This document shows, one piece after another, positions 2,093 to 57,540 of a DNA stretch of 63,357 nt. Within the stretch, counting starts at the first letter, position 1. Each line of letters starts with the position of its first letter. The position numbers were made by a program, and so were the translations under genes. The notes beneath the pieces are model-generated. The model was not told the DNA's origin. It saw only the letters and a program-made list of their open reading frames with translations, and made no database searches. The DNA comes from a virus (Duplodnaviria; Caudoviricetes), in the IMG/VR virus record IMGVR_UViG_3300011116_000174, positions 1 through 63,357 of that record. One strand, written 5' to 3'.

Positions 2093-3006
2093 ACTAGATT
2101 GGTTAGCACCTCACCCGCCTCGACATCAACCACCTTGGTAACATCGTTGGCTTTCTTGCAGATGTATTCAATGCGGGTAATCACTGATTGGGGGCGATAC
2201 TGATACTCACGAATATCACGTCGCTCAGTTCGTGTTGTGCCATCGTGATACTTCTGTTGAAATTCCTCAGTCCGCACAACCCTACTCTCTTGCGAGTTAG
2301 CCCCCATGGTTATCAATACCAACAAGTTTGGATACTCGTCCTCGGTAGCAGTTTGCATAAATCCAAACAACTGTTTTGCTCTACCCTCAGACAAACGATC
2401 GTTCACGTCATAGTAAGAGAATGATTCACCCCTAAATATCACGTTGCTACGCCCCCAATAGTCCTGAGTTCTACTACTATCCACATACTGTTCAACCAAG
2501 TCGCGGGTAATCCAACCATCAGCCAACTTCAACATGTTTCTACAATAGTCGCGGAATCCCTTGATTTGATCTCGGACGTCGCGGGACTTGGTTCGATCAA
2601 CTACACGCTGTTGCAGTTTGGGTATCTCGGCAGGGACGTATTCACCATTGACGTAGTTAAGTAAGAACATCTGTTCCTTGGGTAAGGGATAACTCTTACC
2701 GCCTACCTCAATCCATATAGACCCATAACGCTTAAAGCAACTGATTGCATAGCGACAATGCTTTTCGATAAACGCAGTAGTCAGGGGTGTTGCCCATGTG
2801 TCAATGCGTAGTTCGATTGACCCATCAGGTCTAAACATCACGCACTTGGTGTCATACAACTGCGCGCCATAGTTTTCACCATCTTGCACAACACGTTCCC
2901 AATCCCTACGACGTTCACCGATAGGACGAATATCCTCAGACCTACCTCGGATTGGTTTGGTGTCGTGATACTTGGACTTCATAATGTTATAACGTTCGAT
3001 ACTCAT
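2089..3006 (-). CDS. Hypothetical early protein (305 aa)
   Basis: Long ORF; likely start MSIERYN after AAGGAG. Confidence 0.8.
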   Translation of the reverse strand: MSIERYNIMKSKYHDTKPIRGRSEDIRPIGERRRDWERVVQDGENYGAQLYDTKCVMFRPDGSIELRIDTWATPLTTAFIEKHCRYAISCFKRYGSIWIEVGGKSYPLPKEQMFLLNYVNGEYVPAEIPKLQQRVVDRTKSRDVRDQIKGFRDYCRNMLKLADGWITRDLVEQYVDSSRTQDYWGRSNVIFRGESFSYYDVNDRLSEGRAKQLFGFMQTATEDEYPNLLVLITMGANSQESRVVRTEEFQQKYHDGTTRTERRDIREYQYRPQSVITRIEYICKKANDVTKVVDVEAGEVLTNLV

Positions 3007-3040
3007 AATGCTCTCCTTGAAATTAAAAAGATGTTTATAA

Positions 3041-3057
3041 ATACTGTCAGACAGTAT
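3041..3057. promoter_or_regulatory. 17-bp palindrome
   Basis: ATACTGTCAGACAGTAT. Confidence 0.8.
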
Positions 3058-3377
3058 TACCTGAACAACCACAATGCCAATGCTATCGGCAAAGCCATAC
3101 CCGCACCGATCCAAAAGAATGTCATAAACAATTCCCCGAACCAATCAACCGCCTCCCGCCAGTCGCTCTTGTGTCGGTATATAGCAGTGGCATACTCCGC
3201 GTCCCTAAACGCTTCACTTGCGCTTCGGTGTGTCCTACCCACCGCGTGTTGCAAGTCGTTAATGTGAACGAGCGTCGCGGGACTACGCAGGTCTATGCCC
3301 TCAACTGTCCCGCAGAACTCGCGCTTGGGTTTGTCTTTTACAAGACGTTGTGTAGATGTAATAGGGTTTACCCTCAT
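3057..3377 (-). CDS. Hypothetical membrane protein
   Basis: C-terminal hydrophobic helix; ATGA overlap with the upstream gene. Confidence 0.7.
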   Translation of the reverse strand: MRVNPITSTQRLVKDKPKREFCGTVEGIDLRSPATLVHINDLQHAVGRTHRSASEAFRDAEYATAIYRHKSDWREAVDWFGELFMTFFWIGAGMALPIALALWLFR

Positions 3378-52554: not shown

Positions 52555-54395
52555 CAACAATCTCCGTAACTATATCCATAACTTGCTTCACAATTTAAAG
52601 GCAAAGTATCCGCCCACGTTGGTCTCCAACGCATACATTCCATCACGTATTGAAGGGCTTCCTCTTTCTCTTCTTCTTTTGCGATACAGGCAACGGCATC
52701 ATGCACCGTTAAAACTACCCTATATCGTTGGCTTATTTTAATCATTTGTTCAGCAATCACACAACGCGCCACTGCTTGACAAATGTTCTCAATTACTTTA
52801 CCGCCGTAAAGCTTTACCATACCGCGTCTTGTCGGGTATTCAAATTGGGTATTACCCTGAGGGTCTGTAACTTTATCAATACCTTCGTAGCGTTGCCATA
52901 ACCCACTGGGTAATAAAAACCCTGCTTTGTATGGGTCAAATCCAACTACATCAGGCACACCCAAAGAGCATGCTTGCTTAGATATTATGGCGTCTAAGCA
53001 TCTACCCGCTTGTTTCCATAGTTCGGGTATCTTTCCGTAAGTCGCCCGATAAATTTGTATAATGTGGCTCGCTTCATCTTCCGGTATATCGACTCCGAAT
53101 GTTTTAAGTTGGGCTTGGAACTTCTTACCGCCCATGCCGTATCCGGCGCCGAGAATCGTCGTTTTACCCACAAACCTCTCTGCCGTAGATATTTCTGAGA
53201 CATCCTTGCTATATATAGCAGATGCCATGATTTTGTATACGTCCTCGCCATTCTCAAATGCCTCCACCAAATCTGTTTGTCCTGCTAACCACGCAACCGT
53301 TCGCGCTTCAATCTGCGACGAGTCTGCATCAATAACCACATACCCTTCGGGGGCGCATATGGCTTTCTTTAATTTGTTTGCGTTTGCCCCGCGACTAGGT
53401 AAGTTTTGTAGATTAATTTTGTCATCACCGCCCCACCGCCCAGTGTGCGCCGCGTAATATTTAATCGGTACAGGTAACTTCCCACGCTTGGCTATATCAA
53501 TAAAGCGTTGTGTGCGCGTCTCTTCAAGCGTAGTCTTGTTGCCCAATCTTGCTTCGACCAAAGCCTGAACGCGAGGATCAGGATGTGATGCCAGTTGCTT
53601 GAACGCTTCGTCGGTCTTAGCAAATGCCCACGCTTCCTTGCCAGTGCGCGCACTGATCTTTGTAGGGGGGTCTACACCCAAAGACTTTAATATATCTGCA
53701 AACTTCTCGTTTGACATCAGCGTATCTTTGTCTGCCACGCACGCTAGTAGTAGGGCTTCCTTTTTGTTTTTAGTATCCTCTAAGTGTTGCTCAAGTAGTG
53801 GTAGGTTTAGTTCCAGTACCGGTTCAATAAACATCTTTAGAGTTGTGTCGATTACCTTGAGTTCTTTCATAGGAAAGCCACCACCAATCCCAGGCAACAT
53901 AAGTATGTTAAACAACGTGTATGTCAAATCCACATCGTTCCTACAATACTCACCATAGGCATCTATCTCTGACTGGGTAAAGTTGTTACGGCGTTTGCCC
54001 ATAGCATTTATCACTTCCGTGCCTTTTTCGCCGATGTTATAACGTTCAGCTAATACTTTAAGACTACCGCCCGCCTCAACACCATGGGTAGCACGAGCCA
54101 TACAAAGTGTATCGAGCCAACCCTTCGGTTTGATACCATAGCGCCAAGATAAAATAGCGCCATCAAACTGAGTGTTGTGCGCTAGGACTAGGCAGTTCTT
54201 CCAGTCATATAGTTTGGCAAAGCGGGACTCGGTCATGTGTTTGTTGTCATACCAAACAGTTTCGCCGTCGTCTTCTTTCACCGCTACACCGATAACCTCA
54301 AACCGATCATCGCGAATGTACTCCTCGGTCGTCAATCGCGACAAAGAATATTCTCTGTCGTAATACGTTTCAAAATCTACCGTTAATATTTTCAT
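52554..54395 (-). CDS. polA: Family A DNA polymerase with 3'-5' exonuclease
   Basis: DFET, AHN..FD, HTGRW, NLQNLP, DSSQIEAR, RFVGK...LG.GYG, TVHD. Confidence 0.92.
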   Translation of the reverse strand: MKILTVDFETYYDREYSLSRLTTEEYIRDDRFEVIGVAVKEDDGETVWYDNKHMTESRFAKLYDWKNCLVLAHNTQFDGAILSWRYGIKPKGWLDTLCMARATHGVEAGGSLKVLAERYNIGEKGTEVINAMGKRRNNFTQSEIDAYGEYCRNDVDLTYTLFNILMLPGIGGGFPMKELKVIDTTLKMFIEPVLELNLPLLEQHLEDTKNKKEALLLACVADKDTLMSNEKFADILKSLGVDPPTKISARTGKEAWAFAKTDEAFKQLASHPDPRVQALVEARLGNKTTLEETRTQRFIDIAKRGKLPVPIKYYAAHTGRWGGDDKINLQNLPSRGANANKLKKAICAPEGYVVIDADSSQIEARTVAWLAGQTDLVEAFENGEDVYKIMASAIYSKDVSEISTAERFVGKTTILGAGYGMGGKKFQAQLKTFGVDIPEDEASHIIQIYRATYGKIPELWKQAGRCLDAIISKQACSLGVPDVVGFDPYKAGFLLPSGLWQRYEGIDKVTDPQGNTQFEYPTRRGMVKLYGGKVIENICQAVARCVIAEQMIKISQRYRVVLTVHDAVACIAKEEEKEEALQYVMECMRWRPTWADTLPLNCEASYGYSYGDC

Positions 54396-54625
54396 TTGTC
54401 TAACATGTCATCAACAAGGCACTGAGACAATACTTGTGCCAATCCAACCCTATGCGACTTGCGCTCCTCTTGTTCGTCAGTCGTGTAAATAAAAAGAGAG
54501 TCATCTTTGTGCATAGCGATTCCAACAAAGCTAACTATCTCACCATTTTCAAATTCTTTCAATAGGGTTTTCAATGATGAATAAACATCTTCTCGTTTTC
54601 TATTAATTGATACTATATTTGCCAT
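54392..54625 (-). CDS. Hypothetical protein (77 aa)
   Basis: MANIVSIN after AAGGAG, immediately downstream of the array. Confidence 0.7.
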   Translation of the reverse strand: MANIVSINRKREDVYSSLKTLLKEFENGEIVSFVGIAMHKDDSLFIYTTDEQEERKSHRVGLAQVLSQCLVDDMLDK

Positions 54626-54638
54626 TTCTTTTCTCCTT

Positions 54639-55297
54639 GATATCCTCACCCGACCACACCTAGACTCGCATCACCGCACCGTTCCATACCTTACCGAAAA
54701 ATCCATACCATGCCTTACATGACCTTCGCCATACAGCGCCTAGCCGAGCCACGAACTCCTTGCCATAACTCACCCCGCCGTATCGTACCGAACCGAGCCA
54801 TGCCCGAGCGCGAACTCCTTGCCTGACTGAATCCCGCCACTCCTAGCTATAACATGCCGAACCTAGAACTCCGTGTCTTACCAAACTTCGCCGTGCCCGA
54901 CCATGCCGAGCCGTACCGCGCTAGAACCACGATACCCAAACCTTGCCGATCCCAACTTCACCGCACCACACCTCGCCCCGCCTAGTGGGAACCGCAATAC
55001 CCTTGCCAAACCGGGCACGAACTGAACTCACCATGCCCAACCCTGAACTCCTCACTACACCGCACCTTACCCAACCATGCCTCTACTAACCATGAATCCC
55101 TTACCTCACCAGTACAAACCTCGCACCGCCCGACCCGACCTAACCGCATCGCGCATCACCAAAAAATCCATACCGAACCTTTCCTCACCCGACCAGACCC
55201 CGCCGTAGCTAGTCAAGAAGCCCAAGCCTTGCCCTGCCGGATCGGGACAGACCGATCCATGCCGGGACGCGCCATACACTACCGGAGCCTGATGCCC
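54639..55297 (-). ncRNA. Array of 11 putative guide RNAs: (GGY-NN)n pentamer tracts separated by 7-nt GGRNWUY linkers
   Basis: 5-nt periodicity NN-RCC on the + strand; 12 linkers; begins 3 nt after the stop codon of the RAMP-like gene. Confidence 0.85.
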
Positions 55298-55300
55298 TAG

Positions 55301-55912
55301 TTATGCTACTTTTTTGAGTGGCATTTTTACCGCTGCGAACTTTTTAACTTCATAGCGACCATGACGTGGTCTCCAATCGCCGATGCCAACGTAAGAACCC
55401 GCGTCTTCAACCCAACGCTTTAACTGCGCTTCGTTTGCTACGTCTGAGTTAATAGATACTTTGAACTTAGCAGTCCAGTCTTTGAAGTGCGGACGAGTGC
55501 GCATAACCTTTGCCATACCAACACGCACCGCAACACAGATACGATGGTCTTCGCTCTCAACCAACTGATCGACAGTCATTGTTCCGCCTTCGTATGTAAA
55601 CGTAGCATCGGTATCTACAAACATACCTGATAATGCCAATTTACCTTCCTTGCTTTTCTTAGCGCCTTCGACAAGCACCGACTCAAGCACACGACTTGGG
55701 ACAATTACTTCGTTCTTTTTGTTTAGGTATAACCCTGCACGATACTCGATGTTTGCCATAGCTTCATAGTCTGTATCGGTTTTCTTGCGCTTGCTACTAA
55801 TTTCTTTCATAGCTTTGCTAAACGGATTAAGCGGGTCTGCCGTTTGTCCGTTGTGCATAATCAATGAATCACCGCTTAATTCAACTTCATATTGTGTGTA
55901 GCCTTTTGGCAT
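55301..55912 (-). CDS. Cas7/RAMP-like RNA-binding protein (putative guide-RNA filament subunit)
   Basis: N-terminal strand + LIMHN; IVPSRVLESVL..GA helix; RTRPHF..W; C-terminal Gly-rich loop AGSYVGIGDWRPRHGRY; GAGGAG RBS. Confidence 0.75.
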   Translation of the reverse strand: MPKGYTQYEVELSGDSLIMHNGQTADPLNPFSKAMKEISSKRKKTDTDYEAMANIEYRAGLYLNKKNEVIVPSRVLESVLVEGAKKSKEGKLALSGMFVDTDATFTYEGGTMTVDQLVESEDHRICVAVRVGMAKVMRTRPHFKDWTAKFKVSINSDVANEAQLKRWVEDAGSYVGIGDWRPRHGRYEVKKFAAVKMPLKKVA

Positions 55913-55934: not shown

Positions 55935-56351
55935 TTATGGACGTCGTGATCGTTTGATCTCTTTCGTCCGCACAGTTTTAGGAACTTTTACCTTCCTCTT
56001 TTTTGGCTTGGAAGATTGTTTTGGTTTAATCTCCCTAGTCAAAACCTTTCGCAACGTCTGATCGCCAAGCGCCCGACGTCTACTTCTAATTGATTCCGTA
56101 ATCCCATCATGACAAGACTCGCATAACATAATCACGTCGTTGATAGTTTCCTCACCCCATGTGTCGTAGTGTCGATGATGTAACTCCATAGCGTATTCTT
56201 CGCTTGACCGCCAACATGTTCCGCACTGATACATTTGTTGTAGCGCTTTTAGGTTACGCAACTGAAACCAATGATCGGGATTTGGGTGGGACTTCGCGGG
56301 ACGTAGGACTTTATGTCCGTCGATCTCCCTAACTCTTTTCAATTGAGTCAT
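55935..56351 (-). CDS. HNH endonuclease with basic C-terminal tail
   Basis: CGTC...ELHHRHY..WGEE...LCESCH. Confidence 0.8.
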   Translation of the reverse strand: MTQLKRVREIDGHKVLRPAKSHPNPDHWFQLRNLKALQQMYQCGTCWRSSEEYAMELHHRHYDTWGEETINDVIMLCESCHDGITESIRSRRRALGDQTLRKVLTREIKPKQSSKPKKRKVKVPKTVRTKEIKRSRRP

Positions 56352-57145: not shown

Positions 57146-57281
57146 TTTGTTTTAGGTAATCCTTAATAATTGCTATAAATCCCTCTTGCACTAGAAACTG
57201 CAAGCCCTCTTTATCAAAGTCAAGCGTAACAACCCCCGACCCATCTTTGTTTTCTCTAACCATCGTGGCTTCAATTTTCAC
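57015..57281 (-). CDS. Hypothetical protein
   Basis: GTG start after GAGGAG; ENKDGS...LDFD. Confidence 0.6.
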   Translation of the reverse strand: MKIEATMVRENKDGSGVVTLDFDKEGLQFLVQEGFIAIIKDYLKQNENAKKGIEMRKRAEARKTRASATAIKGKPKNNKRSSKVSTRS

Positions 57282-57540
57282 GTTTTCTCCTCTCGATTTC
57301 TCGTTTAACATACCAAACTGCTTTTTCCAAATCCTCAATCGCATCGCCTTTTAAGTCGGCGCGCCATATGTATTTCATCGCGTTGCCCAAACAAAAACTC
57401 ATGTGTTCTGTAATTTGTATACAGTCAATCCCACTGGGGTGCGACGTGTAATGCTTGGGATTATTTACGTTGTCAATAACCGCGTCTTCATAGCCCGGAT
57501 GATATGGTGCTTCTTCAACTTTTTTTTGATATTCATTCAT
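57271..57540 (-). CDS. DUF3310 (SaV-like) protein
   Basis: VNNPKHY...FCLGNAMKYIWRA..K...EDLEKA.WY. Confidence 0.85.
   Translation of the reverse strand: MNEYQKKVEEAPYHPGYEDAVIDNVNNPKHYTSHPSGIDCIQITEHMSFCLGNAMKYIWRADLKGDAIEDLEKAVWYVKREIERRKREN

What the first reader, a model, noticed from the sequence alone, without database searches (positions are those of the whole stretch)
54639..55297. Array grammar: 11 units, each a 7-nt linker followed by 9-14 variable dinucleotides spaced by GGY
In RNA order the linkers are GGGCAUC (55297-55291), GGGCUUC, GGAUUUU, GGGAUUC, GGAGUUC, GGGUAUU, GGGUAUC, GGAGUUC x3, GGAUUUU and a terminal GGAUAUC (54645-54639); consensus GGRNWUY. Each is followed by NN then (GGY-NN)n. 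Units on + coordinates: G1 55224-55290, G2 55170-55216, G3 55101-55162, G4 55052-55093, G5 55003-55044, G6 54938-54995, G7 54873-54930, G8 54819-54865, G9 54760-54811, G10 54705-54752, G11 54646-54697. The trinucleotide tolerates substitutions and three units have one extra base, but the NN strings are all different. That is information in a fixed scaffold, not slippage. Linkers are plausible processing sites (inference).
Basis: seen in the sequence. Interest (0 to 1): 0.9.

Follow-up and report, generated by a model that had tools for sequence, protein, structure and literature searches.

The report
Phage VIPR guide-RNA array
This is a phage's array of eleven short guide RNAs of the recently described VIPR kind, in which variable base pairs set between fixed GGY triplets spell out the genes of rival phages, an integrating element and apparently the host.

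Summary
On the minus strand, 54639-55297 holds 11 units of 9-14 NN-GGY pentamers, separated by 7-nt GGRNWUY linkers.

It is not a new class. It matches the vrRNA arrays of VIPR systems, described in 2026 bioRxiv preprints.

The 203-aa gene directly upstream (55301-55912) is the Vipr protein:
- It has a Cas7-like RAMP fold (pLDDT 93.9; Cmr4 Z 11.1).
- It keeps the six residues that hold GGY and the target backbone in the solved complex.

Read by the published rule (NN, skip one base), 5 of 11 guides decode to real genes:
- G11: the polA start of related phages.
- G1: YqaJ-like recombinase genes.
- G3: the catalytic-tyrosine motif of tRNA-Ser-linked integrases.
- G6: the start of tRNA-Ser genes.
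- G4: host moaC.

In the four protein-coding targets the skipped base is the codon wobble position; G6's target is a non-coding tRNA gene.

Other skip lengths give nothing, and no guide matches the phage itself.

This member differs from the studied type II. It has 7-nt linkers instead of a structured 3' tail, a conserved HNH neighbour, and guides that read host chromosomal genes.

Processing at the linkers and expression remain untested.

The parts
55301..55912 (-). vipr: 203-aa Cas7-like RAMP protein, the partner of the array
   Evidence: No Pfam, NCBIfam or PADLOC family. It matches phrog_4652 (unknown function, E 6.6e-51). The AF2 model has pLDDT 93.9. Every Foldseek row listed is a CRISPR RAMP chain, nearly all Cas7-family (Cmr4, Csm3, type VII Cas7; one Cmr1), E from 1e-5. 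VIA-align gives 6s6b_I Z 11.1. It is 34% identical (E 1e-37) to the Felixounavirus wV8 homologue. H20, K36, R140 and D179-W180-R181 align to H17, K33, R138 and D177-W178-R179.
54639..55297 (-). vrRNA array: 11 guide units separated by GGRNWUY linkers. It starts 3 nt after the vipr stop codon and ends 13 nt before the next ATG.
55224..55290 (-). G1, 14 NN. It decodes, antisense, to motif GGS[DE][IM]GAILG of YqaJ-like recombinase/exonuclease genes.
   Evidence: The 10-NN core has 9 exact IMG/VR sites. All 9 lie in that motif, with the skip at the wobble position; the full unit matches 22-25 of 28. PF09588 was found in 4 of 4 ORFs tested.
55170..55216 (-). G2, 10 NN. No target found.
55101..55162 (-). 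G3, 13 NN. It decodes, sense, to E[AG]AYRRG[DE][LF]L[ED], the C-terminal tyrosine motif of ~410-aa integrases.
   Evidence: There are 6 IMG/VR sites and 66 genome sites, all in frame. Arm-DNA-bind_3 + Phage_int_M + Phage_integrase were found in the one ORF tested.
55052..55093 (-). G4, 9 NN. It decodes, sense, to IYDMCKAV[DE] of moaC.
   Evidence: There are at least 120 metagenome stretches. 81 of 81 sites examined are in frame on this motif. PF01967 was found in 5 of 5 ORFs tested.
55003..55044 (-). G5, 9 NN. No target found (local data only).
54938..54995 (-). G6, 12 NN. Its core reads positions -3 to +26 of tRNA-Ser genes, in the same sense as the tRNA.
   Evidence: There are 4 hits in 251 Pseudomonadota genomes against 0 for the control. 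All 4 are tRNA-Ser. The core matches 16 of 16 in the tRNA-Ser(CGA) next to G3-type integrases in 4 Burkholderiales loci.
54873..54930 (-). G7, 12 NN. No target found.
54819..54865 (-). G8, 10 NN. No target found (local data only).
54760..54811 (-). G9, 11 NN. No target found.
54705..54752 (-). G10, 10 NN, with one 4-nt spacer. No target found.
54646..54697 (-). G11, 11 NN. It decodes, sense, to SK[IM]TTEEYVRD, codons 19-29 of polA of related phages. It is unique to this phage among the 20 arrays compared.
54310..54341 (-). The phage's own polA site homologous to the G11 target (SRLTTEEYIRD). It matches only 17 of 22.
55935..56351 (-). HNH endonuclease gene directly upstream of vipr; a candidate accessory (vap-like) gene.
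   Evidence: PF01844, E 1.2e-5. It is adjacent to vipr in all 14 related loci that reach upstream, at 57-100% identity. It is absent next to the distant Vipr genes of L051, L088 and L092 (L107 starts inside its array, so its upstream side is not held).
54392..54625 (-). 77-aa ORF between the array and polA; function unknown.
   Evidence: Only sub-threshold Pfam hits. tblastn finds it in no related locus.

Best explanation
The region is the guide-RNA array of a VIPR (Viral Interference Programmable Repeat) system, carried by a complete, apparently virulent 63-kb phage.

Proposed mechanism:
- The array is transcribed with vipr on the minus strand.
- It is cut at or near the 7-nt GGRNWUY linkers into eleven vrRNAs of about 50-75 nt.
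- One Vipr protomer (the 203-aa Cas7-like protein encoded just upstream) binds each pentamer. It buries GGY and presents the NN pair.
- The filament pairs its NN with double-stranded DNA that reads NN-x-NN-x, skipping every third base, and blocks transcription there. If the neighbouring HNH protein takes part, it may instead recruit a nuclease.

Inferred targets of this array:
- the polA gene of related phages (G11)
- YqaJ-type recombination genes (G1)
- the integrase of an element integrated beside tRNA-Ser, together with the start of that tRNA gene (G3, G6)
- host moaC (G4)
- six targets not identified

Basis of each step:
- Taken from the preprints: filament assembly, the R-loop triplex and silencing.
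- Inferred: co-transcription, cutting at the linkers, silencing versus cleavage, and which host.
For: GRAMMAR. There are 9-14 NN-GGY repeats per unit, with GGY fixed and NN at about 2 bits. This matches the published definition of 9-16 YNNGG repeats (discovery preprint, Results).

PARTNERSHIP WITH THE PROTEIN.
- All 16 IMG/VR loci that encode a relative of the 203-aa protein (42-100% identity) carry a period-5 G-rich tract directly downstream.
- So do the distant homologues in Pseudomonas phage Medea1, Escherichia phage wV8, Mycobacterium phage LittleE, and Gordonia phages MakoManhole and Trine.

PROTEIN.
- Cas7-like RAMP fold.
- The six residues that the cryo-EM preprint reports as holding GGY and the target backbone are conserved.
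- H20, R140 and R181 are invariant, and K36 and D179 are at least 90% conserved, in 57 family members.

DECODING.
- G11 matches at least 18 of 22 in 61 of 97 records with skip 1, and in 0 records with skips 0, 2 or 3.
- 14 records match 21 of 22. In each the single difference is guide G opposite A. The skipped wobble bases vary freely.
- Sliding 9-NN windows of all arrays against 1.25 Mb gave 82 hits at 17 of 18 with skip 1. Skips 0, 2 and 3 gave 9, 0 and 6 such hits; skip 3 also gave one 18 of 18.
- G1: 9 of 9 exact sites lie in one YqaJ motif.
- G3: 72 of 72 sites lie in one integrase motif.
- G4: 81 of 81 examined sites lie in one MoaC motif.
- G6: 4 of 4 hits are tRNA-Ser starts, with 0 for the control.
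- G3 and G6 converge. Of the first 60 of the 66 genome loci with a G3-type integrase, 21 hold a tRNA, and 20 of those are tRNA-Ser. The G6 core is perfect in four of them.

NO SELF-TARGET.
- No guide reaches 80% in the window.
- The phage has no YqaJ gene, no integrase and no tRNA gene.

PRECEDENT. SUSP1 VIPR silences a satellite's excision recombinase at active-site codons (competition preprint, section 6 and a legend passage).
Against: - Expression and processing are not shown. Only assembled contigs from three RNA libraries of two studies lie on the array. Such libraries can hold DNA.
- There is no structured 3' tail of the kind that caps type II vrRNAs. The linkers are 7 nt, and the whole array folds no better than shuffles (z -0.94).
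- Six of 11 guides have no identified target. Exact scans for G9, G6b, G7 and G10 in IMG/VR and for G9 in metagenomes found nothing. G2 had no hit in 121 genomes. G10 gave 3 hits against 1 control.
- The G1, G3, G4 and G6 targets are ultra-conserved motifs found in many taxa. The actual element or host that is targeted is therefore unknown. In 24-31 kb of three Burkholderiales islands, and on the 11-kb contig of a fourth, no other guide matched.
- SUSP1 itself was not fetched. The link to the studied protein rests on the wV8 homologue, which has the same residue identities at the published positions.
- The HNH neighbour is shared only within this clade.
Confidence: 0.9

Rival explanations
1. 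It is a VIPR array, but it acts by destroying its targets rather than silencing them. In this reading the conserved HNH protein upstream of vipr is the accessory nuclease, recruited to the vrRNA-bound site.
For: An HNH gene lies directly upstream of vipr in all 14 related loci that reach upstream. These include the five loci of the 57-62%-identity group, where orf104, orf92 and wHTH76 were not detected. The HNH motif residues look intact by eye. The discovery preprint says that types III-V carry predicted nucleases or helicases, and a figure legend lists HNH among Vap domains.
Against: HNH genes are common free-standing homing endonucleases in phages, and adjacency within one syntenic clade is weak evidence. 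The distant Vipr genes of L051, L088 and L092 have no HNH homologue beside them (L107 starts inside its array, so its upstream side is not held). There is no PADLOC hit, and the only NCBIfam hit (IscB HNH domain, 19 bits against a cut-off of 175) is meaningless. Cutting the host moaC or tRNA-Ser gene would be odd, though harmless for a lytic phage.
Confidence: 0.25
2. It is a protein-sponge or attenuator RNA of the TRAP kind, in which triplets spaced by 2 nt wrap around a ring-shaped RNA-binding protein and the NN carry no information.
For: The 5-nt period with about 11 triplets per unit recalls the 11 (G/U)AG repeats bound by the TRAP 11-mer (recalled from memory, not from a call). This was my first working idea.
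Against: The partner protein has a Cas7-like fold, not a TRAP beta-sandwich. The NN of 5 units decode to gene sequences only in the 1-nt skip register. NN are conserved within orthologous units.
Confidence: 0.02
3. It is a structural DNA or RNA element made by slippage, such as two-tetrad G-quadruplexes or a replication-origin repeat next to polA.
For: GG runs every 5 nt could form G-quadruplexes, G makes up 42% of the strand, and the element sits beside polA.
Against: Slippage gives identical units, whereas here all 16 dinucleotides occur at about 2 bits. The element travels with vipr, not with polA: 4 of 80 polA loci hold an array, and two complete relatives lack vipr. It also decodes to targets.
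Confidence: 0.02

Closest known systems
VIPR type II (Escherichia phage SUSP1, Pseudomonas fulva prophage): Vipr + vap1 + vrRNAs (bioRxiv 10.64898/2026.04.26.720920, .720927 and 10.64898/2026.10.15.759431)
   Same: GGY/NN pentamer grammar with 9-16 repeats. A ~20-kDa RAMP protein with the same GGY-holding residues. It is phage-borne. Targets follow the 1-nt skip rule, with the skip on the codon wobble. There are no self-targets. One guide is aimed at a mobile element's recombinase at active-site codons.
   Different: Protein identity is only 33-34% to the Ounavirinae homologues. There is no ~40-nt tail or pseudoknot. Eleven guides are packed head to tail with 7-nt linkers. The array lies directly after vipr, with no vap1-like gene between them. 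An HNH gene lies upstream. Some guides read polA of kin phages, a tRNA gene and a host metabolic gene.
'Staggered' VIPR arrays of the discovery preprint (legend of Fig. S18 only; figure and supplement not seen)
   Same: [quoted passage not shown] This fits a tail-less, linker-only array.
   Different: The legend speaks of 1-nt overlaps. I could not see which type, which linker or which accessory genes are meant, so identity with this architecture is not established.
Class 1 CRISPR Cas7 backbone filaments (Csm3/Cmr4, Cascade Cas7)
   Same: RAMP fold. One protomer per fixed step of guide RNA. A thumb interrupts pairing periodically (structure matches; mechanism from the cryo-EM preprint).
   Different: The period is 5 nt with 2 read bases, instead of 6 nt with 5 read bases. 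There are no long direct repeats, and no cas1 or cas2 was looked for or seen nearby. The guide information sits inside the repeats, not between them.
TRAP-trp leader RNA (look-alike only)
   Same: Triplets spaced by 2 nt, with about 11 per RNA (recalled).
   Different: The protein fold is different, the target is DNA, and the spacers carry the information.

Membership tests
VIPR | Vipr protein with a RAMP fold (RRM core, G-loop, thumb) | tested here: met
   Model pLDDT 93.9. Every Foldseek row listed is a CRISPR RAMP chain, nearly all Cas7-family (one Cmr1), with 75 matches at E <= 0.001. VIA-align gives Cmr4 Z 11.1, Csm3 Z 10.4 and gRAMP Z 10.3.
VIPR | Residues that hold GGY and the skip-base backbone in the solved SUSP1 complex (H17, K33, R138, D177, W178, R179) | tested here: met
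   They align to H20, K36, R140, D179, W180 and R181 through the wV8 homologue, which carries exactly those residues at those numbers (residue list from the cryo-EM preprint, sections 5-6). SUSP1 itself was not fetched.
VIPR | vrRNA of 9-16 YNNGG repeats next to vipr, with GGY conserved and NN hypervariable | tested here: met
   9-14 repeats per unit. Entropy is 1.98 and 1.97 bits at NN against 0.75, 0.92 and 1.38 bits at GGY. The array starts 3 nt after the vipr stop codon.
VIPR | Targets follow the 1-nt skip rule (NN x NN x) on either DNA strand | tested here: met
   5 of 11 guides decode, four in sense and one in antisense. Skips 0, 2 and 3 give no G11 record at 80% or more.
VIPR | No self-target at 80% NN match or more | tested here: met
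   The best self-match is G11 on the phage's own polA, at 17 of 22 = 77%.
VIPR | Conserved structured 3' tail after the repeat tract (type II) | tested here: not met
   Only 7-nt linkers are present, and the fold z-score is -0.94. The preprint lists tail-less 'staggered' arrays among other types, so this excludes type II, not VIPR.
VIPR | Accessory vap gene in the operon | tested here: inconclusive
   An HNH gene is conserved upstream within the clade but is absent in distant relatives. The vap families are defined in supplements that I could not see.
VIPR | vrRNAs are expressed, processed and co-purify with Vipr; binding silences transcription | not testable with these tools
   Only contigs of RNA libraries lie on the array.
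CRISPR array | Identical direct repeats of about 24-48 nt alternating with unique spacers | tested here: not met
   Tandem Repeats Finder finds no array. The only fixed elements are GGY triplets and 7-nt linkers.
TRAP-type RNA | Partner is a small beta-sandwich protein that forms 11/12-mer rings | tested here: not met
   The partner has a RAMP fold.

The most novel reading that the evidence does not exclude
Part of this phage's VIPR array is aimed at the host chromosome, not only at rival mobile elements. G4 reads nine consecutive moaC codons perfectly. G6, kept in at least seven related phages, reads the start of tRNA-Ser genes. A virulent phage would then use RNA-guided silencing to reprogram host genes. 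For G6 it might instead shut the tRNA-Ser promoter that sits just upstream of an island integrase also hit by G3. In addition, the tail-less GGRNWUY linker would be a minimal processing signal, cut by a host RNase. Its consensus resembles the RNase E preference RN|WUU, which I recall from memory and did not test.
Probability: 0.3. Interest if true: 0.75.

Novelty: new member of a known kind. Interest (0 to 1): 0.5.

Why it matters
VIPR was described only in 2026, and it has been studied in one E. coli phage clade and one Pseudomonas prophage clade.

This freshwater phage gives an independent test of the code, free of the E. coli data. The 1-nt skip rule holds at 33-34% protein identity and without a tail. 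It also shows how broad a single guide can be. G11 matches the polA start of at least 61 divergent phage records, because it reads only codon positions 1 and 2 of a conserved peptide.

The case offers concrete, cheap experiments on three open points:
- how tail-less arrays are processed
- whether an HNH partner turns silencing into cleavage
- whether phages point VIPR at host genes (moaC, tRNA-Ser)

The pairing of a unique guide (G11) with a diverged copy of its target in the same phage bears on how new guides arise without self-harm, which remains unexplained for VIPR.

Tried and rejected
Searches on the array itself that led nowhere:
- Tandem Repeats Finder found nothing on the array.
- Rfam at permissive thresholds gave only two chance snoRNA hits in the window region. 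It gave nothing on the arrays of six related or distant loci.
- blastn of the locus against 50,697 phage records gave no match.
- ARAGORN found no tRNA in the window.

Ideas considered first and dropped once the fold and the decoding were in:
- A TRAP-like wrapping RNA and a G-quadruplex element (note).

Target searches without result:
- G9, all 11 NN, exact in IMG/VR: 0.
- G9, 10 NN, in metagenome contigs: 0.
- G6, 10-NN core, exact in IMG/VR: 0. It was found only when 2 mismatches were allowed in cellular genomes.
- G7, 11 NN, in IMG/VR: 0.
- G10, 10 NN, in IMG/VR: 0. In 5 genomes it gave 0. In 251 genomes it gave 3 hits against 1 control; two of the three carry in-frame stop codons, so I read them as chance.
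- G2, 9 NN with at most 1 mismatch, in 121 genomes: 0.
- G5 and G8 were tried only against sequence already fetched.
- In 625 kb of whole related phage records, only G11 matched.
- In 24-31 kb of three Burkholderiales islands, and on the 11-kb contig of a fourth, only G3 and the G6 core matched.

Host: not identified. polA has only 35% identity to cultured phages, of Rhizobium and Pseudomonas. The G3 and G6 matches point loosely to Pseudomonadota, and to Burkholderiales for the perfect G6 core. However, those genomes are 58-66% GC against about 45% for the phage.

RNA evidence: three metatranscriptome runs hold contigs on the array and on the 3' part of vipr, and one of them also on HNH. Contigs cannot show ends, strand or level, and a part without cover means nothing.

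WIN against its sibling G003: 6 of the 44 polA differences fall in the 33-nt G11 site (binomial 1e-4). The first 130 nt of polA are generally divergent, so I read this as a recombination tract rather than proven escape.

Literature not seen: supplementary files of the preprints were closed. I therefore could not assign a VIPR type (I-VII). Nor could I check whether tail-less linker arrays, HNH vaps, tRNA-like punctuation or host-gene targets are already tabulated there.

What I read:
- Discovery preprint: abstract, all Results, Discussion, four Methods sections, figure-legend passages, and a term search ('tRNA', 'host gene', 'chromosomal', 'RNase': 0 occurrences).
- Cryo-EM preprint: abstract and two Results sections.
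- Competition preprint: abstract, two Results sections, and a term search ('tRNA' 0, 'polymerase' 0).
- Language-model preprint 10.64898/2026.10.21.760802: passages only.

Full report
WHAT IS THERE.

The window is a whole IMG/VR virus record of 63,357 bases, estimated complete. On the minus strand, the stop codon of a 203-aa ORF (55301-55912) is followed after 3 nt by 659 nt of G-rich sequence (G 42%). No ORF is conserved there. The stretch ends 13 nt before the ATG of a 77-aa ORF, and polA follows.

- Lag-5 autocorrelation is 0.425 against about 0.25 at neighbouring lags.
- Over 110 pentamers, the two N positions carry 1.98 and 1.97 bits. GGY carries 0.75, 0.92 and 1.38 bits.
- In-phase GGYNNGGY occurs 39 times, against 3.5 +/- 1.9 in shuffles.
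- Three units (G6, G7, G10) have one extra base, always inside a spacer.
- There is one array in the window.
- There is no predicted terminator between HNH, vipr, the array and polA.
- The RNA has no fold beyond what its composition gives (z -0.94).

THE PARTNER PROTEIN.

The 203-aa protein has no Pfam, NCBIfam or PADLOC family. It belongs to phrog_4652, of unknown function. It has 784 relatives at E <= 1e-3 in the large protein collection; none of the 120 listed has a Pfam domain.

All 16 IMG/VR loci that encode a relative (42-100% identity) have a period-5 G-rich tract directly downstream. The same holds in very distant phages: Pseudomonas phage Medea1, Escherichia phage wV8, Mycobacterium phage LittleE, and Gordonia phages MakoManhole and Trine.

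A model built on 57 sequences has pLDDT 93.9. Every Foldseek row listed is a CRISPR RAMP chain, nearly all of the Cas7 family (Cmr4, Csm3, type VII Cas7; one Cmr1). An independent all-against-all aligner gives Cmr4 Z 11.1, Csm3 Z 10.4 and gRAMP Z 10.3.

WHAT IT IS.

A full-text search for pentanucleotide repeats in phages returned a 2026 bioRxiv preprint on VIPR systems. These consist of:
- a ~20-kDa ancestral RAMP protein, Vipr;
- vrRNAs made of 9-16 YNNGG repeats, in which GGY is fixed and NN hypervariable;
- a targeting rule in which the NN pair with double-stranded DNA and one target base is skipped between pairs.

The natural targets are competing phages, satellites and prophages.

A companion cryo-EM preprint shows one protomer per repeat. 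H17, D177, R138, W178 and R179 hold GGY, and K33 contacts the backbone at the skipped base. A later preprint shows that phage SUSP1 uses one vrRNA to silence a satellite's excision recombinase at active-site codons. A fourth preprint recovers VIPR arrays by their 5-nt entropy period.

The window protein aligns to the wV8 (Felixounavirus) homologue at 34% identity, E 1e-37. That homologue carries exactly the published residues at the published numbers. They correspond to H20, K36, R140, D179, W180 and R181 in the window protein. H20, R140 and R181 are invariant, and K36 and D179 are at least 90% conserved, in the family alignment.

wV8 also has period-5 tracts both upstream of vipr and downstream of the second gene, which is the layout described for SUSP1.

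I therefore file the locus as a VIPR system and the finding as its vrRNA array.

DOES THE CODE HOLD HERE?

I applied the published rule to the 11 NN strings.

No self-targeting. No guide reaches 80% in the window itself.

G11.
- It matches codons 19-29 of polA (SK[IM]TTEEYVRD), in frame, with the skipped base on the wobble position.
- Of 97 records compared (the window, 16 vipr loci or contigs, and 80 polA loci), the best match was 21 of 22 in 14 records, 20 in 13, 19 in 20 and 18 in 14.
- That is 61 records at 80% or more with skip 1, and none with skips 0, 2 or 3.
- In all 14 best records the single difference is guide G opposite A. This would be a G-T wobble with the target strand, which is my inference.
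- The skipped bases differ freely among these records.
- The phage's own polA reads SRLTTEEYIRD and matches 17 of 22.

Array-wide control. Sliding 9-NN windows from all arrays, run against 1.25 Mb, gave 82 hits at 17 of 18 with skip 1. Skips 0, 2 and 3 gave 9, 0 and 6 such hits; skip 3 also gave one 18 of 18. The skip-1 signal is dominated by G11.

G1. The 10-NN core has 9 exact sites in IMG/VR, in contigs of 29-64% GC. All 9 are antisense to GGS[DE][IM]GAILG of YqaJ-like recombinase genes, with the skip on the wobble position. PF09588 was found in 4 of 4 ORFs tested.

G3.
- 11 NN have 6 sites in IMG/VR and 66 in the species-representative genomes.
- All lie in frame on E[AG]AYRRG[DE][LF]L[ED], near the C-terminus of ~410-aa integrases. 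I recall this as the catalytic-tyrosine region.
- 40 of the 66 match 25 of 26.
- Most of the 66 record titles name Pseudomonadota; the one clear exception is a Terriglobales MAG.
- One IMG/VR site lies at a contig end, so only the peptide, not an ORF, could be read.

G4. 81 of 81 sites in the first 80 loci lie in frame on IYDMCKAV[DE] of MoaC, and the other 40 loci show the same DNA. PF01967 was found in 5 of 5 ORFs tested. MoaC is nearly absent from phage records: 15 of 50,697, and the ten listed are unannotated, mostly short records.

G6. The core, with up to 2 mismatches, hit 4 of 251 Pseudomonadota genomes against 0 for the reversed control. All four sites are positions -3 to +26 of tRNA-Ser genes, in the tRNA's sense.

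CONVERGENCE OF G3 AND G6.

I scanned the first 60 of the 66 genome loci with a G3-type integrase. Of these, 21 contain a tRNA within the 8-kb locus, and 20 of those are tRNA-Ser. In four Burkholderiales loci (Rhizobacter, Comamonadaceae UBA2121, Comamonas suwonensis, Caldimonas), the 8-NN core of G6 matches the adjacent tRNA-Ser(CGA) 16 of 16.

Two guides thus read the two ends of a tRNA-Ser-integrase junction, which is the usual left end of an integrated island or satellite. This parallels the published SUSP1 case.

The phage itself has no integrase, no YqaJ gene and no tRNA gene. All these targets are therefore foreign to it, and the phage is probably virulent.

HOW THE ARRAYS EVOLVE.

Related phages share some units and not others. 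G2, G6, G9 and G10 are widespread. G3 is shared with two arrays. G4 and G11 occur only in the window among the 20 arrays compared (the ungapped comparison misses some units that have spacer indels).

Within shared units, NN change as rarely as GG (4.7% against 3.5%), while Y toggles (14.8%). Contigs from sequencing runs also show a unit-sized replacement that starts inside the G7/G8 linker and ends a few bases into G6.

The closest sibling (Vipr 100% identical, PolA 99%) lacks G11, has a different ORF after the array, and carries a polA start that matches G11 20 of 22. The window's own polA differs from it at 6 positions inside the 33-nt site. I read G11, the 77-aa ORF and the polA 5' end as one exchanged tract that brought a guide together with an immune allele. 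This is an inference.

VIPR is accessory in this phage group. Only 4 of 80 polA-centred loci hold an array, and two complete relatives with terminal repeats have no Vipr.

WHAT DIFFERS FROM THE STUDIED SYSTEMS.
- There is no 40-nt tail or pseudoknot. Units are joined by GGRNWUY. Over 45 distinct contexts in 16 arrays the consensus is G G R (U>A>C>G) U U Y, with GGGUUUC commonest.
- Decoded targets start at the first NN after a linker and end at the last NN before the next GGR. So one unit is one guide, and the cut should fall in the linker.
[quoted passage not shown] This may be the same thing.
- An HNH gene sits directly upstream of vipr in all 14 related loci that reach that far. It is not found next to the distant Vipr genes of L051, L088 and L092 (L107 starts inside its array, so its upstream side is not held).

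LIMITS.
- Expression, processing, RNP formation and silencing are not shown for this locus.
- Six guides are undecoded.
- The host and the actual targeted elements are unknown.
- The moaC and tRNA-Ser matches are to sequences so conserved that they identify a gene, not a genome.
- The VIPR type could not be assigned, because the supplements were closed.

VERDICT.

The system is already in print (2026 preprints), so this is a new member of a known kind, not a new class.

Its value lies in three things:
- an independent confirmation of the code in a distant clade;
- a tail-less array architecture;
- guides that appear to read host genes.

Noticed in passing
L022 (Gordonia phage Trine) 3540-3830; L021 (MakoManhole) 2885-3135; L020 (Mycobacterium phage LittleE) 4150-4480: In actinophages the NNGGC arrays downstream of the Vipr homologue are punctuated by tRNA-like minihelices. 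Each has a 5-6-bp outer stem around a 6-7-bp hairpin with a UUCGAnU loop, and the stem sequences differ between the three genera, which suggests covariation. ARAGORN calls one of them 'tRNA-???'. This suggests processing by RNase P or RNase Z. The word 'tRNA' does not occur in the held text of the discovery preprint.
   Followed up: partly
L022 3555-4358 (Trine gene 40): An annotated 267-aa hypothetical CDS starts inside the vrRNA array and its tRNA-like elements. The 5' part of that annotation is probably wrong.
   Followed up: no
L019 (Escherichia phage wV8) 2720-2777 and 4113-4170: Two 58-nt direct repeats annotated 'DR_4' in 2008-era annotation lie at the ends of the period-5 tracts upstream and downstream of the vipr-like operon. 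They are probably the conserved vrRNA tails.
   Followed up: no
L018 540-2140: A 42%-identical Vipr is followed by several arrays whose units end in a conserved linker of about 25 nt (GGA-CUUUU...CGUACAAC-like) instead of 7 nt. This is a third array architecture within one protein family.
   Followed up: no
window 54310-54625, compared with G003: The last guide (G11), the 77-aa ORF and the first ~130 nt of polA differ together from the nearest sibling phage, while the rest of polA is 98% identical. This looks like a recombination tract that couples a new guide with a non-matching copy of its own target.
   Followed up: partly
L088 2113-2616, L092 8941-9459, L107 312-830: In three other VIPR-bearing polA relatives, a conserved 167-172-aa gene (with a shared N-terminal FxKKTKQ[RK]IID.YL motif) follows the array directly. 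It may be that clade's accessory gene.
   Followed up: no
window 54869-54989 (runs X19 and X15): Contigs from other samples replace the stretch from inside the G7/G8 linker to a few bases into G6 with a different 54-nt stretch (X19), and replace 54646-54730 (G11 and the start of G10) with other letters (X15). This is cassette-like polymorphism of guides in natural populations.
   Followed up: no
window 57271-57540: A DUF3310 protein (phrog 'nucleotide kinase' families) lies upstream in the same minus-strand gene block, and a second DUF3310 copy appears downstream of the array in the L012-L017 clade.
   Followed up: no
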